The translations under genes were made by a program, and so were the position numbers. Source: a virus. Taken from it: a DNA stretch of 33,990 nt. Below the pieces are notes generated by a model. That model did not search any database. It saw only the letters and a program-made list of their open reading frames with translations, and had not been told where the DNA came from. Shown piece by piece: positions 5,381-6,792 of this stretch; position 1 is the stretch's first letter, and each line of letters opens with the position of its first letter. The stretch is from the UHGV virus genome UHGV-0171993; one strand, written 5' to 3'.

Positions 5381-6265
5381 TTATATTGGGCGCTTTGAAT
5401 TCGATTTAAAGCGTCTTCCACTTATTCCAGAAACCCAAATGTCTTCCTCAAGAAAGTCAAGAAGGGCTTTTATTTCTTTTTTTGATGAAGGCATGACAAT
5501 TTTCTCAACGCCGCCAACTATTATGGTTTGTAAGGGGAATTTAACTTTAGCAGCTTCGGATTTAAACTTTGACATATTTGGGGGTGTTAGCATCCCAGTC
5601 TGATTTATTAGTGTTACTTTATTTCTTATCACTGTATCTGCAACGGATTTTAGATCAAAACCTTGGGGAGTAGAAAATACACTAAGTTGACTAAATGCAT
5701 TAAGTTCTTGGTCAGTAGCAGCAGAAAAATAGGACGACATGTCAAAAATGCTTCTTAGATTAAAGAAACTCTTAAATCGTATTGTATCATTGATAATTAT
5801 TGCAACTAGTTTATCATCAACATTAAAACCGATGCTATTAGCTTTACTAAAGGTAGTTTTGCTTGCAAAAAGCTTTCCAAAGAATGATTTTGAGGTATCT
5901 AAGATTTGTTTTTTGTTGAAAGTTTGTAGTGCAATAATATTGGGGTTTGCTGGCGCGTCAACACCAACAAATAATGCTTTAATATAACCAATATCAATTT
6001 GGCTAGGATCCCAGATAGGCACGGCGGTAGGCCTATTGACTGCGTCAATCAGGCGTGCAGAATCAGTAAAGTTTTGTATTTCAAAACACTCACTATGTTT
6101 TGGTGTATAACCGGCATAGAATGGTATCATATTGTTATGATGACTTTCAAAATATTGACGCTGTTGTTGGAAAATGGCCGTAACAGAAGTACTTGCTGTT
6201 GCATCAAGTTCGACTCTAACAATTCTCGTTGCAATTGTATTATCTATTACTGCAAAAAGTGCCAT
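5381..6265 (-). CDS. Hypothetical 294-aa soluble protein, second gene of a low-GC two-gene cargo operon
   Basis: Minus-strand ORF with AAGGA RBS about 9 nt upstream; starts 5 nt after the stop of the upstream membrane-protein gene; visibly AT-rich; no motif I recognise. Confidence 0.6.
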   Translation of the reverse strand: MALFAVIDNTIATRIVRVELDATASTSVTAIFQQQRQYFESHHNNMIPFYAGYTPKHSECFEIQNFTDSARLIDAVNRPTAVPIWDPSQIDIGYIKALFVGVDAPANPNIIALQTFNKKQILDTSKSFFGKLFASKTTFSKANSIGFNVDDKLVAIIINDTIRFKSFFNLRSIFDMSSYFSAATDQELNAFSQLSVFSTPQGFDLKSVADTVIRNKVTLINQTGMLTPPNMSKFKSEAAKVKFPLQTIIVGGVEKIVMPSSKKEIKALLDFLEEDIWVSGISGRRFKSNSKRPI

Positions 6266-6270
6266 GGTTA

Positions 6271-6792
6271 TTATCCTTTAACATGTAGAAATGTGTAGTC
6301 TGTTAATTGAATAACTGTAAATTTGATATCTTTAATATCAGTAATGACTGATTTAGAAATCAATACAAAACCTACGCCGGTGTCATCTTCAGCTTCGTAA
6401 AATTTATAACCGATAAGTGACAATACTGGGTTAAAGTTATAGTTCTCGGAAAAGCTGATGTAAAATAACAATGACAAATAAAAGAATAACGCATATGCTT
6501 TATTTTCAGCAATAGAATCTGTTCCTAGGAGAGGGAATAAATAGCTTAAGAAATAATTAGTTACTTCTTTGTTAGCTGGAGAAACTGAACTAATATTTTT
6601 TGTCAGAGGTTCAAGTTGTTTCTCAGCATATTGAATCAGGCCTATTGCTAATAACCAACTTGCTATGCCAACGCATAAGCTATATTGCATCAGCCAAACC
6701 GTATCTTTTACATATCCAATAAAAAATAGAGTTGCGCAAACAGGTGCAATTGAGCTGGCCGTTAATAATAAGCGTGCTAATTTGTTCATCAT
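6271..6792 (-). CDS. Hypothetical multi-pass membrane protein (173 aa), first gene of the low-GC cargo operon
   Basis: Minus-strand ORF with AAGGAT RBS; three clear hydrophobic helices (LLLTASSIAPVCATLFFIGYV, YSLCVGIASWLLAIGLIQY, AYALFFYLSLLFYISF) and a roughly 55-aa C-terminal soluble tail. Confidence 0.6.
   Translation of the reverse strand: MMNKLARLLLTASSIAPVCATLFFIGYVKDTVWLMQYSLCVGIASWLLAIGLIQYAEKQLEPLTKNISSVSPANKEVTNYFLSYLFPLLGTDSIAENKAYALFFYLSLLFYISFSENYNFNPVLSLIGYKFYEAEDDTGVGFVLISKSVITDIKDIKFTVIQLTDYTFLHVKG

What the first reader, a model, noticed from the sequence alone, without database searches (positions are those of the whole stretch)
5381..6792. Low-GC convergent two-gene operon (membrane protein + 294-aa soluble protein) between Q and the lysis genes: candidate undescribed anti-phage module
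Two minus-strand genes form a tight operon (5-nt intergenic gap, AAGGA-type RBS on both), opposite in orientation to every other gene in the window. The sequence is visibly AT-rich (about 30% GC in the lines I counted by hand, versus GC-rich flanking phage genes), which marks it as acquired cargo. The first product is a 173-aa protein with three clear hydrophobic helices and a short soluble tail; the second is a 294-aa soluble protein with no catalytic motif I can recognise. A small membrane protein paired with a soluble partner is the layout of several two-gene phage-defence or abortive-infection systems (Kiwa KwaA/KwaB; lambda RexB/RexA in reverse order), but I cannot assert homology to either from sequence memory. 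It lies in the Q-to-S cargo slot that carries stx and tRNAs in Stx phages.
Basis: partly seen in the sequence, partly recalled or inferred. Interest (0 to 1): 0.85.

Follow-up and report, generated by a model that had tools for sequence, protein, structure and literature searches.

The report
Prophage Kiwa defence operon with SOS box
The two AT-rich reverse-strand genes are not an undescribed system but a divergent copy of the known Kiwa anti-phage system (KwaA membrane sensor plus KwaB DNA-binding effector) carried as prophage cargo; the one new observation is a conserved LexA (SOS) operator in its promoter, which is also present upstream of the well-studied canonical Kiwa.

Summary
Two intact minus-strand genes (kwaA 6271-6792, kwaB 5381-6265) lie 5 nt apart, each with an AAGGA RBS. 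GC is 34% against 52% for the rest of the window.

The "undescribed module" reading does not hold. Both proteins match PADLOC Kiwa models end to end (KwaB E 1.4e-149, KwaA E 1.9e-83). KwaB passes Pfam PF16162. AlphaFold models hit only the solved KwaA and KwaB structures. RefSeq already labels the same cassette as Kiwa in 33 complete E. coli genomes.

It is nevertheless a deeply divergent clade, with 11-19% identity to the solved proteins and no pairwise BLAST similarity. It occupies one fixed position, immediately after and convergent with antiterminator Q, in 51 of 54 viral contigs and in prophages of five genera.

One result appears unreported. A 20-nt LexA box (window 6804-6823) sits next to a -10-like hexamer 34-45 nt before kwaA in 25 of 26 distinct viral-contig promoters, in eight directly fetched lineages from seven genera, and in a deposited Klebsiella phage. 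A comparable box lies 88-92 nt upstream of kwaA in all five enterobacterial canonical-clade loci examined, including the locus encoding the solved protein.

Most likely mechanism: a LexA-repressed, SOS-inducible Kiwa that senses membrane perturbation at phage entry and blocks phage DNA replication.

The parts
6271..6792 (-). kwaA: 173-aa (172 from the second ATG at 6789, the RefSeq start) inner-membrane Kiwa sensor. Four TM helices plus a cytoplasmic beta domain built from the TM2-TM3 loop hairpin and the C-terminal strands.
   Evidence: ORF. PADLOC KwaA PDLC00216 E 1.9e-83, aligned 1-172 of 173. NCBIfam KwaA NF041622 E 5e-12, 46 bits, below the 100-bit equivalog cut-off. AF2 model pLDDT 78. 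Foldseek top 7 hits are all solved KwaA (9mrg, 9mrx_A, 9mrr), E 1.8e-6 to 3.8e-5, TM 0.55-0.69 (0.62-0.69 for the best), 17-19% identity, and the next hit has E 0.37.
5381..6265 (-). kwaB: 294-aa soluble Kiwa effector with an N-terminal alpha/beta domain and a C-terminal DUF4868 domain.
   Evidence: PADLOC KwaB PDLC00225 E 1.4e-149, full length. Pfam PF16162 30.6 bits against gathering score 26.3. AF2 model pLDDT 79. Foldseek top 5 hits are all solved KwaB (9mrx_D, 9mtn, 9nyu), E 2.6e-6, probability 1.00, TM about 0.5, 11-12% identity, and the next hit has E 0.69. A broad profile's best PDB sequence hit is KwaB, but only at E 0.085.
6804..6823 (-). LexA (SOS) box TGCTGTATGCATAAACAGTA (CTGT-N8-ACAG) between the putative -10 and the kwaA RBS. 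Inferred operator of the kwaAB promoter.
   Evidence: Only CTGT-N8-ACAG site in the window. PWM score 21.4 bits; only two sites in the window exceed 20 bits and the next best scores 13. Conserved at -34 to -45 from the kwaA ATG in eight directly fetched lineages from seven genera, in 25 of 26 distinct IMG/VR promoters, and in Klebsiella phage ST846-OXA48phi9.1. No site of 20 bits or more in 2 Mb of composition-matched random sequence.
6823..6851 (-). Putative kwaAB promoter: -35-like TAGATA (6851-6846), 17-nt spacer, -10-like TAAAGT (6828-6823) touching the LexA box.
   Evidence: Inference from phylogenetic footprinting. A TAnnnT hexamer lies at or within 2 nt of the 5' edge of the box in all eight lineages (TATAAT in Yersinia, TATATT in Salmonella, TATACT in Proteus), and a GATGGA/GATAGA motif lies about 17 nt upstream. 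It scores 8/12, below the consensus scanner's threshold, so the scanner did not call it.
6797..6801 (-). kwaA ribosome-binding site AAGGA.
   Evidence: Read from the sequence.
6274..6278 (-). kwaB ribosome-binding site AAGGA inside the kwaA 3' end, 8 nt before the ATG. The arrangement is tightly packed and bicistronic.
   Evidence: Read from the sequence. The kwaA-kwaB gap is 4-9 nt in Salmonella and Klebsiella.
5360..6912 (.). Extent of the Kiwa cargo cassette: from the Q stop codon to the point where similarity to cargo-free or other-cargo phages resumes.
   Evidence: 33 E. coli genomes match 5300-6957/6972 at about 99%. Phage P27 similarity begins near 6905-6913. Phage 1720a-02 has Q directly followed by the conserved element.
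5000..5359 (+). Antiterminator Q (context): convergent with kwaB, 21 nt apart, with no intrinsic terminator between them.
   Evidence: Pfam Phage_antitermQ E 2.9e-45. No terminator-like site between the two genes on either strand.
6913..6975 (+). Conserved phage element ending in a hairpin plus T-run (context, not part of Kiwa). Candidate late-transcript leader and terminator.
   Evidence: Shared by the window, E. coli TUM14664 and phage P27. The stem sequence differs but still pairs. Terminator-like call at 6956-6969. No Rfam family matches. The fold z-score is not significant.

Best explanation
The operon is a Kiwa anti-phage system (kwaA then kwaB) of a divergent clade that lives as reverse-oriented cargo immediately downstream of antiterminator Q in lambdoid prophages of Enterobacterales.

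Shown here:
- Both proteins belong to the KwaA and KwaB families by HMM and by predicted fold.
- They are adjacent and co-oriented, and both are under purifying selection.
- The promoter region carries a strongly conserved LexA-box palindrome next to a -10-like hexamer.

Inferred:
- Host LexA represses the kwaAB promoter, so expression is basal in the unstressed lysogen and rises during the SOS response. That is the same signal that induces lambdoid prophages.
- KwaA inserts into the inner membrane with four TM helices and tetramerises. Its cytoplasmic beta domain docks KwaB dimers.
- Membrane perturbation at a phage attachment or DNA-ejection site, or at a conjugation site, activates the complex.
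- KwaB then binds the incoming DNA through its DUF4868 domain and stalls replication and late transcription, without killing the cell. This is as published for canonical Kiwa (PMC11785009).
- Because the cassette lies to the left of the conserved element (a candidate late leader/terminator) and points the other way, its expression would not depend on Q antitermination.
For: - Family assignment: PADLOC full-length hits for both proteins. Pfam KwaB above its gathering score. NCBIfam KwaA E 5e-12. Homologues carry precomputed PF28043 KwaA and PF16162 KwaB.
- Fold: the AF2 models hit only solved KwaB and KwaA structures. The KwaA model reproduces the published architecture of four TM helices plus a beta domain.
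- Existing annotation: RefSeq labels the identical cassette as Kiwa.
- Gene reality: purifying selection and conserved pairing across E. coli, Klebsiella, Salmonella, Proteus, Yersinia, Pantoea and Pectobacterium.
- Position: a convergent Q gene in 51 of 54 IMG/VR loci.
- LexA box: present in eight directly fetched lineages from seven genera, in 25 of 26 distinct viral-contig promoters and in one deposited phage, at 20.4-27.5 bits. The box is far more conserved than its flanks (0.86 against 0.58 and 0.46). The same operator lies 88-92 nt upstream of kwaA in 5 of 5 enterobacterial canonical-clade loci, including the one encoding the solved KwaB.
- Published mechanism for canonical Kiwa.
Against: - No experiment here shows phage resistance for this clade. 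I could not establish whether any of the five operons tested in PMC11785009 (ECOR8, ECOR12, ECOR49, D9, Ralstonia) belongs to it.
- Identity to the solved proteins is only 11-19%, pairwise BLASTP is non-significant (E 1.2), and a broad profile reaches solved KwaB only at E 0.085. Published DNA-contact and interface residues therefore cannot be mapped reliably.
- NCBIfam's KwaA equivalog cut-off is not reached (46 bits against 100).
- LexA binding is inferred from sequence only. The PWM was built from E. coli SOS boxes recalled from memory. The -35/-10 assignment is weak (8/12). A large RNA-seq preprint reports that defence systems overall correlate negatively with recA expression.
- Kiwa acts at phage entry, so induction after infection would come too late for the infected cell. 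The benefit of SOS control is an argument, not a result.
Confidence: 0.8

Rival explanations
1. An undescribed two-gene defence or abortive-infection module unrelated to known systems.
For: Pairwise sequence comparison with characterised Kiwa proteins shows nothing. PHROGs lists both families as 'unknown function'. Many RefSeq records still call the small protein 'hypothetical'.
Against: Full-length PADLOC KwaA and KwaB hits at E 1e-83 and 1e-149. Pfam KwaB passed. Both folds match solved Kiwa structures exclusively. RefSeq and Pfam carry Kiwa labels.
Confidence: 0.02
2. Kiwa-fold proteins that mainly serve the prophage rather than act as a general host defence. They might exclude competitors only during the prophage's own induction. 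Alternatively, SOS-driven kwaAB transcription might run antisense into Q and modulate late-gene timing, by analogy with lambda paQ (from general knowledge).
For: The position is strict, convergent with Q at gaps of 21-177 nt, with no terminator between kwaB and Q. A LexA operator would fire the promoter exactly when lambdoid prophages are induced. Related Kiwa prophages encode LexA DNA-binding-domain-only proteins in their early regions.
Against: The same clade also occurs outside the Q slot, in Salmonella integrase islands and in a Pectobacterium D5-primase element, with the LexA box retained. Both proteins, not just the transcript, are under strong purifying selection. Canonical Kiwa in ordinary defence islands has the same operator. 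No data on antisense transcripts are available.
Confidence: 0.12
3. The conserved palindrome is not a LexA operator. It could be a core promoter feature or the site of another regulator, such as a phage repressor or a phage-encoded LexA-DBD protein. Kiwa would then be constitutive or H-NS-silenced like other AT-rich cargo.
For: No binding data exist. The window's own box is at the low end (21.4 bits, 16/20 to consensus). A single CTGT-N8-ACAG site occurs by chance in 29% of shuffles. Related prophages encode LexA_DNA_bind-only proteins that could use the same site. At 34% GC the DNA is a typical H-NS target (general knowledge).
Against: CTG and CAG are invariant while the 8-10 central bases drift, across more than 30 distinct promoters and two Kiwa clades with different promoter geometry. 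The sites include near-perfect matches to the consensus. In each canonical locus tested locus-wide (L077, L079, L081) the box is the top-scoring site by more than 7 bits. Canonical loci sit in non-phage islands with no phage regulator nearby. The Pseudomonas and Vibrio homologues lack the box.
Confidence: 0.15
4. A decaying, non-functional remnant of Kiwa carried passively by a defective prophage.
For: The clade is rare (33 of 5,426 complete E. coli genomes). One viral contig has the box disrupted at a breakpoint (L040). One E. coli genome has an ISL3-family element at the locus (H43).
Against: Both ORFs are intact, with RBSs. dN/dS is well below 1. Pairing is conserved across seven genera, and the clade comprises 1,050 clusters at 50% identity.
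Confidence: 0.03

Closest known systems
Canonical Kiwa (E. coli O55:H7 RM12579 type; structures 9mrx, 9mrg, 9mrr, 9mtn, 9nyu; PMC11785009)
   Same: Two-gene kwaA-then-kwaB operon. KwaA has four TM helices plus a cytoplasmic beta domain. KwaB has an N-terminal alpha/beta domain plus DUF4868. The predicted folds match. Both are AT-rich (31-32% GC in canonical loci). Both have a LexA box in the promoter region.
   Different: Identity is 11-19%, with no pairwise BLAST similarity. The proteins are shorter (173 against 195 aa, 294 against 315 aa). The genes are separated by 5 nt rather than overlapping by 4-26 nt as in the canonical loci fetched. The LexA box lies downstream of the -10 at -34 to -45, rather than at -88 to -92 just upstream of the -10-like element. 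The clade has a fixed Q-adjacent prophage position, whereas the canonical loci examined sit in defence islands. It is untested experimentally as far as I could establish.
PADLOC Kiwa subtype models PDLC00225 (KwaB) and PDLC00216 (KwaA); PHROG 15620 and 7312
   Same: End-to-end matches. This is the catalogued subfamily to which the window's genes belong.
   Different: Those resources give a name only. They carry no mechanism, regulation or positional information.
PD-Lambda-1-like gene L22 of Stx2e phage P27, and other cargo in the same Q-adjacent slot
   Same: Occupies the same slot between Q and the conserved element in an otherwise collinear module of small ORF, methylase and tRNAs.
   Different: Unrelated single protein (T5orf172/MUG113 domain) on the + strand, with no LexA box detected. 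The resemblance is positional only.
Lambda RexA/RexB
   Same: Prophage-encoded pair of a membrane protein and a soluble protein, expressed in the lysogen independently of lytic transcription (general knowledge).
   Different: No homology: no RexA or RexB model matched. Rex is an abortive-infection ion-channel system, whereas Kiwa is reported not to be abortive.
DNA-damage-coupled regulation of defence (WYL regulators such as BrxR/CapW and DriD-like activators; PMC12392091, PMC9122589)
   Same: These systems link expression of anti-phage systems to DNA damage, the logic proposed here for LexA and Kiwa.
   Different: They use dedicated WYL-domain regulators encoded next to the system. Here there is no cognate regulator gene, and the host's global SOS repressor is the inferred regulator.

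Membership tests
Kiwa | KwaA homologue detectable by family HMMs | tested here: met
   PADLOC PDLC00216 E 1.9e-83 over the full length, plus 11 further KwaA models. Homologues carry PF28043 KwaA.
Kiwa | KwaA reaches the NCBIfam equivalog threshold (NF041622, 100 bits) | tested here: not met
   46 bits, E 5e-12, aligned 34-161. The homology is significant, but the protein does not count as an equivalog of the canonical protein.
Kiwa | KwaB with a DUF4868 / PF16162 domain | tested here: met
   PF16162 30.6 bits against gathering score 26.3, residues 108-281. PADLOC PDLC00225 E 1.4e-149.
Kiwa | kwaA immediately upstream of kwaB, same strand, in one operon | tested here: met
   5-nt gap. The same order is found in every related locus examined.
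Kiwa | KwaA architecture: four TM helices plus a cytoplasmic beta-barrel formed from ICL1 and the C-terminus | tested here: met
   AF2 model: helices 2-28, 32-59, 77-90 and 98-114; strands 62-72, 130-136, 141-146, 157-162 and 167-170. Foldseek hits only solved KwaA, TM 0.55-0.69. This is a prediction, not a structure.
Kiwa | KwaB two-domain fold as in the solved structure | tested here: met
   Foldseek top 5 hits are all solved KwaB, probability 1.00, TM about 0.5, rmsd 7-8 A. The moderate TM score is compatible with a different domain orientation. Residues 123-144 are low-confidence, roughly where the canonical flexible DE loop lies.
Kiwa | Conservation of published DNA-contact (N134, R142, R167, D169, K187, R233) and KwaA-KwaB interface residues | tested here: inconclusive
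   The only sequence alignment to solved KwaB scores 15.5 bits at E 0.085, and BLASTP gives E 1.2. That is too weak for residue mapping. The subfamily has its own invariant basic residues: R17, R78, K152, R171, R214, K216, K266, K291 and R292.
Kiwa | KwaA tetramer and KwaB dimer supercomplex formation | not testable with these tools
   No multimer prediction or biochemistry was available.
Kiwa | Protection against phage and reduced conjugation, requiring both genes | not testable with these tools
   Needs an experiment. Shown for five other operons in PMC11785009.
Lambda RexAB / Abi systems | Homology to RexA, RexB or Abi family models | tested here: not met
   Only Kiwa models matched either protein in PADLOC. 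There are no such Pfam hits.
SOS (LexA) regulon | CTGT-N8-ACAG operator overlapping or adjoining the promoter | tested here: met
   Window 6804-6823, 16/20 to consensus, 21.4 bits. Conserved in position across both clades.
SOS (LexA) regulon | LexA binding and DNA-damage-dependent derepression | not testable with these tools
   No binding or expression data. No paper in the searchable library links Kiwa to LexA or SOS.

The most novel reading that the evidence does not exclude
Enterobacterial Kiwa, both the canonical structurally solved clade and this prophage clade, is a direct member of the LexA regulon. Its expression would be held down in unstressed cells and raised by DNA damage. This would pre-arm cells against the wave of temperate phages released under the same stress, or guard an induced lysogen against superinfection. 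In the prophage clade the SOS-fired promoter also points, with no terminator, into the 3' end of Q, so it could additionally modulate late-gene timing. This would be a previously unreported regulatory layer for a well-studied defence system. It predicts that SOS-inducing antibiotics change Kiwa-mediated phage resistance.
Probability: 0.65. Interest if true: 0.55.

Novelty: already known. Interest (0 to 1): 0.35.

Why it matters
As a defence module the finding is ordinary. It is Kiwa, detectable by PADLOC and already labelled as such in RefSeq, so it should not be pursued as a new system.

Three things are still useful:
- This clade is so far from the solved Kiwa (11-19% identity) that it offers a natural test of which features of the KwaA-KwaB supercomplex are essential.
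- It is tied to one slot, immediately after antiterminator Q. Related phages hold PD-Lambda-1-like or wholly uncharacterised cargo in that slot, so it is a practical place to look for new defence genes in lambdoid and Stx phages.
- The conserved LexA operator, shared with canonical Kiwa, gives a cheap and testable prediction that Kiwa is SOS-regulated. If true, quinolones, mitomycin C and other SOS inducers would alter phage susceptibility and conjugation in Kiwa-positive Enterobacterales. That bears on phage-antibiotic combinations. It also bears on published Kiwa phenotypes, which were obtained with native-promoter constructs.

Tried and rejected
- Sequence searches of the PDB with each protein and with close-family profiles found no Kiwa chain. 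Only a broad 56-sequence profile reached KwaB, and then marginally. The link to the solved structures therefore rests on fold and family HMMs.
- Mapping the published DNA-binding and interface residues was abandoned because the alignment is unreliable.
- The sigma-70 consensus scan found no promoter upstream of kwaA at its 9/12 threshold. The proposed promoter comes from footprinting only.
- I could not determine whether ECOR8, ECOR12 or D9 Kiwa belong to this clade. The paper's supplements are not held, and none of the 33 matching complete genomes carries those strain names.
- Rfam has no family for the conserved element at 6913-6975, and its fold energy is not better than shuffles. Its reading as a late-promoter leader and terminator remains an inference.
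- RexAB and Abi homology: rejected.
- No deposited phage genome carries the cassette at nucleotide level. At protein level only Klebsiella phage ST846-OXA48phi9.1 and Pseudomonas phage PfAC02a match.
- A LexA_DNA_bind-only protein like those in related prophages was looked for in the window. ORF 3201-3584 occupies the comparable position but has no Pfam hit.
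Full report
**1. Observation**

They are separated by 5 nt. An AAGGA lies at 6801-6797 ahead of the first gene, and another at 6278-6274, inside the 3' end of the first gene, 8 nt ahead of the second ATG.

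The operon is 34.4% GC against 52.1% for the rest of the window. GC3 is 25-28% against about 54% in neighbouring genes.

Every neighbour with a Pfam assignment is on the + strand:
- DUF968, 3586-4635
- RusA, 4645-5019
- antiterminator Q, 5000-5359
- N6/N4 DNA methylase, 7448-8494
- two tRNAs, 8663-8816
- two holins and an M15 endolysin, 9378-10415

Both genes are real. Against the Klebsiella and Salmonella orthologues, synonymous sites are saturated (pS 0.71-0.83) while pN is 0.09-0.26. Against a 99%-identical E. coli copy, kwaA has 4 synonymous and 0 non-synonymous differences.

**2. Identity**

Both proteins match PADLOC Kiwa models end to end: KwaB PDLC00225 at E 1.4e-149 and KwaA PDLC00216 at E 1.9e-83. 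No other defence family matches.

KwaB passes Pfam PF16162 (30.6 bits against a gathering score of 26.3). KwaA matches NCBIfam's KwaA model at E 5e-12 but stays below its equivalog cut-off. Homologues carry the newer Pfam family PF28043, "KwaA".

The same cassette, at 98.9-99.5% nucleotide identity, is present in 33 of 5,426 complete E. coli genomes. RefSeq calls the genes "Kiwa anti-phage protein KwaB-like domain-containing protein" and "KwaA family protein" or "hypothetical protein".

**3. Distance from characterised Kiwa**

Neither protein nor a close-family profile finds a solved Kiwa chain by sequence. BLASTP against the solved KwaB (P0328, 100% identical to the PDB chain over the aligned region) gives E 1.2. 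A broad 56-sequence profile does rank "Kiwa protein KwaB" first, but only at E 0.085.

Structure prediction closes the gap:
- The KwaB model (pLDDT 79) hits only solved KwaB chains: E 2.6e-6 to 5e-5, probability 1.00, TM about 0.5, 11-12% identity. The next hit has E 0.69.
- The KwaA model (pLDDT 78) hits only solved KwaA chains: E 1.8e-6 to 3.8e-5, TM 0.55-0.69, 17-19% identity. The next hit has E 0.37.
- The KwaA model has four helices plus a loop hairpin and four C-terminal strands. This is the published architecture of four TM helices with a cytoplasmic beta-barrel.

The clade is large: 1,050 clusters at 50% identity with E no higher than 1e-3, and the best 150 are mostly full-length proteins of about 285-300 aa.

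**4. Genomic position**

The cassette is bounded on the left by the Q stop codon at 5359. On the right it ends near 6905-6912, where similarity to phages lacking it resumes.

That slot is variable in otherwise collinear modules:
- Phage 1720a-02: empty.
- Stx2e phage P27: a PD-Lambda-1-like gene (L22).
- mEp460: an uncharacterised 308-aa minus-strand gene.
- Stx2a_1447: an uncharacterised overlapping pair (343 aa plus a 179-aa protein with a weak TM-region hit), also on the minus strand.

The tRNA and stx position lies further right, after the methylase.

The Kiwa clade is strongly tied to this position:
- In 54 IMG/VR loci, 51 have a convergent Q gene 25-177 nt beyond kwaB.
- Of the 44 with enough upstream sequence, 41 have lysis or methylase genes diverging from kwaA.
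- The same layout occurs in prophages of Klebsiella, Proteus (with a different Q family), Yersinia and Pantoea, and in the deposited Klebsiella phage ST846-OXA48phi9.1.
- Exceptions are Salmonella integrase islands and a Pectobacterium D5-primase element.

No intrinsic terminator separates kwaB from Q on either strand.

**5. A conserved LexA box**

I aligned the regions upstream of kwaA from different contexts. One block stood out between diverged flanks: TGCTGTATGCATAAACAGTA in the window (6823 to 6804 on the minus strand). This is a CTGT-N8-ACAG palindrome with 16 of 20 matches to the E. coli LexA consensus.

Evidence within the window:
- It is the only CTGT-N8-ACAG site in the window.
- It is one of only two 20-mers scoring above 20 bits with a PWM built from 16 E. 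coli SOS boxes. Those boxes were recalled from memory; they score 17.5-27.7 bits themselves. The next best site in the window scores 13.

Evidence from comparison:
- Eight lineages from seven genera carry a box of 20.7-27.5 bits, 34-42 nt before the ATG. CTG and CAG are invariant. The box's majority fraction is 0.86 against 0.58 and 0.46 in the flanks.
- Among IMG/VR loci, 25 of 26 distinct promoter sequences have the box at -34 to -45. One apparent -133 is a mis-called start codon. The single exception has the left half-site replaced at a breakpoint.
- A TAnnnT hexamer lies at or within 2 nt of the 5' edge of the box in all eight lineages (TAAAGT here, TATAAT in Yersinia), with a GATGGA/GATAGA motif about 17 nt upstream. 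Transcription would therefore start inside the operator. This is inferred.

**6. Control: canonical Kiwa**

I rebuilt residues 55-312 of the solved KwaB from the alignment and used them to fetch canonical loci. All five enterobacterial loci have a box 88-92 nt upstream of the kwaA ATG:

| Locus | Source | Box | Bits | Position |
|---|---|---|---|---|
| L081 | encodes the exact solved protein | AACTGTATATAAACCCAGTA | 26.9 | -92 |
| L077 | Klebsiella | AACTGTATAAATAACCAGTA | 26.4 | -90 |
| L079 | Hafnia | TACTGTACAAATAACCAGTA | 24.5 | -92 |
| L083 | Pantoea | TACTGTATAAAAAAACAGTA | 26.9 | -88 |
| L084 | Enterobacter | TACTGTATATAAAAACAGCA | 26.5 | -88 |

A -10-like element follows each box within a few bases: TGgTAGAAT in L081, TGtTATAAT in Pantoea and TGtTACAAT in Enterobacter. 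In the three loci I scored in full (L077, L079, L081) the box is the best-scoring site of the whole locus by more than 7 bits.

No site reached 20 bits in 2 Mb of composition-matched random sequence. The Pseudomonas Pf-phage Kiwa has no box, and the Vibrio locus has no canonical one.

The Kiwa mechanism paper never mentions LexA or SOS. No paper in the searchable library pairs Kiwa with LexA. A 2025 preprint on defence-system expression does not mention Kiwa. The library is incomplete, so "unreported" carries that limit.

**7. Mechanism**

Shown here: family membership, predicted fold, operon structure, purifying selection, position, and the conserved operator.

Taken from the literature on canonical Kiwa:
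- KwaA tetramers and KwaB dimers form a membrane supercomplex that localises to phage attachment sites.
- KwaB binds DNA through DUF4868 without cutting it.
- Phage replication and late transcription fail, and the cell survives.
- Lambda Gam inhibits KwaB.

Inferred for this locus:
- The same mechanism operates here.
- LexA represses the promoter.
- The SOS response raises expression together with prophage induction.

The rationale for SOS control is argument only. It could pre-arm cells when DNA damage predicts phage release, or protect the induced lysogen from superinfection.

**8. Verdict**

The finding is a real defence operon, but it is Kiwa and already catalogued. Its novelty as a "new system" is nil. 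The residual interest lies in three things: the LexA operator shared by two very distant Kiwa clades, the fixed Q-adjacent residence, and the uncharacterised cargo that other phages carry in the same slot.

Noticed in passing
window 7456-7475 (+), inside codons 3-9 of the DNA methylase gene 7448-8494: A second LexA-box-like site, TACTGTAAAAATATCCAGTT (21.3 bits; the only other site in the window above 20 bits). It is conserved at the same place in the methylase genes of phages P27, 1720a-02, mEp460 (TACTGTAAAAATAAACAGTG) and Stx2a_1447, while codons 2-3 just before it vary. This suggests a LexA operator at the start of the Stx-phage methylase gene.
   Followed up: partly
L012 1407-2970 (Stx2a_1447); L011 2015-2941 (mEp460_4F5); L002 1240-2469 (P27 L22): The slot immediately after Q that holds Kiwa here holds other cargo in collinear phages. 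P27 has a PD-Lambda-1-like gene. Stx2a_1447 has an overlapping minus-strand pair (343 aa plus a 179-aa protein with a weak TM-region hit). mEp460 has a 308-aa minus-strand gene. The last two have no PADLOC, Pfam or NCBIfam assignment and only 'unknown function' PHROGs. They are candidate uncharacterised defence genes by position.
   Followed up: partly
window 6913-6975 (+): About 60 nt conserved between the window, E. coli TUM14664 and phage P27, ending in a hairpin plus T-run. The stem differs (GCTCG/CGAGT here, CCCGCC/GGCGGG elsewhere) but still pairs. It may be the late-promoter leader and terminator. There is no Rfam match, and the fold energy is no better than shuffles.
   Followed up: partly
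window 2704-3198 (+), with small ORF 2515-2694 (+) just upstream: A Doc-family toxin (TIGR01550 DOC_P1, 125 bits against cut-off 38.65; Pfam Fic/DOC; PHROG 'Doc-like toxin') in a lower-GC patch (0.40-0.42). The 59-aa ORF upstream could be its Phd-type antitoxin but was not tested.
   Followed up: partly
L001 6157-6483; L007 10495-10887: Related Kiwa-carrying prophages of E. coli and Klebsiella encode small proteins (108 and 130 aa) consisting only of a LexA DNA-binding domain with no S24 peptidase domain. These might bind LexA boxes, including the kwaA operator, in an uncleavable way during lytic growth. The window's ORF at the comparable position (3201-3584) has no Pfam hit.
   Followed up: partly
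window 7064-7297 (+) and 7284-7301: A 77-aa ORF (PHROG 331, unknown function; weak winged-helix hit), conserved next to the methylase in P27-like and Stx phages. It ends in a strong terminator-like hairpin, GCCTTCCGCAGTGAAGGC followed by TTTTTTATTT.
   Followed up: no
window 8663-9278: tRNA-Thr(UGU) and tRNA-Gly(UCC) occupy the position where Stx phages carry ileZ/argN/argO. The stx-equivalent position holds only a 114-aa ORF with no family (8934-9278) and a sub-threshold STnc100 sRNA match at 9011-9207 (22.5 bits against gathering score 47).
   Followed up: no
L082, roughly 1857-1882, about 25-50 nt upstream of kwaA at 1908 (Vibrio parahaemolyticus canonical-type Kiwa): There is no canonical LexA box. 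Instead there is a longer palindrome, ACTGTAT-N10-ATACAGT, made of LexA-like half-sites with wider spacing. kwaA follows a type I restriction hsdR gene by 74 nt.
   Followed up: no
L040 (IMG/VR contig, kwaA upstream region); H43 (E. coli ES10): Natural disruptions of the locus. In L040 the left half of the LexA box is replaced at a sequence breakpoint. In strain ES10 an ISL3-family (ISKox3) element is annotated under the matched Kiwa locus.
   Followed up: no
L003-L006 9146-13617 (Salmonella islands): Where this Kiwa clade lies outside prophages, it sits beside a conserved trio: a 453-aa unknown protein, a 695-aa DUF87 ATPase and a D12-class methyltransferase, all flanked by integrases. This may be another defence module.
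   Followed up: no
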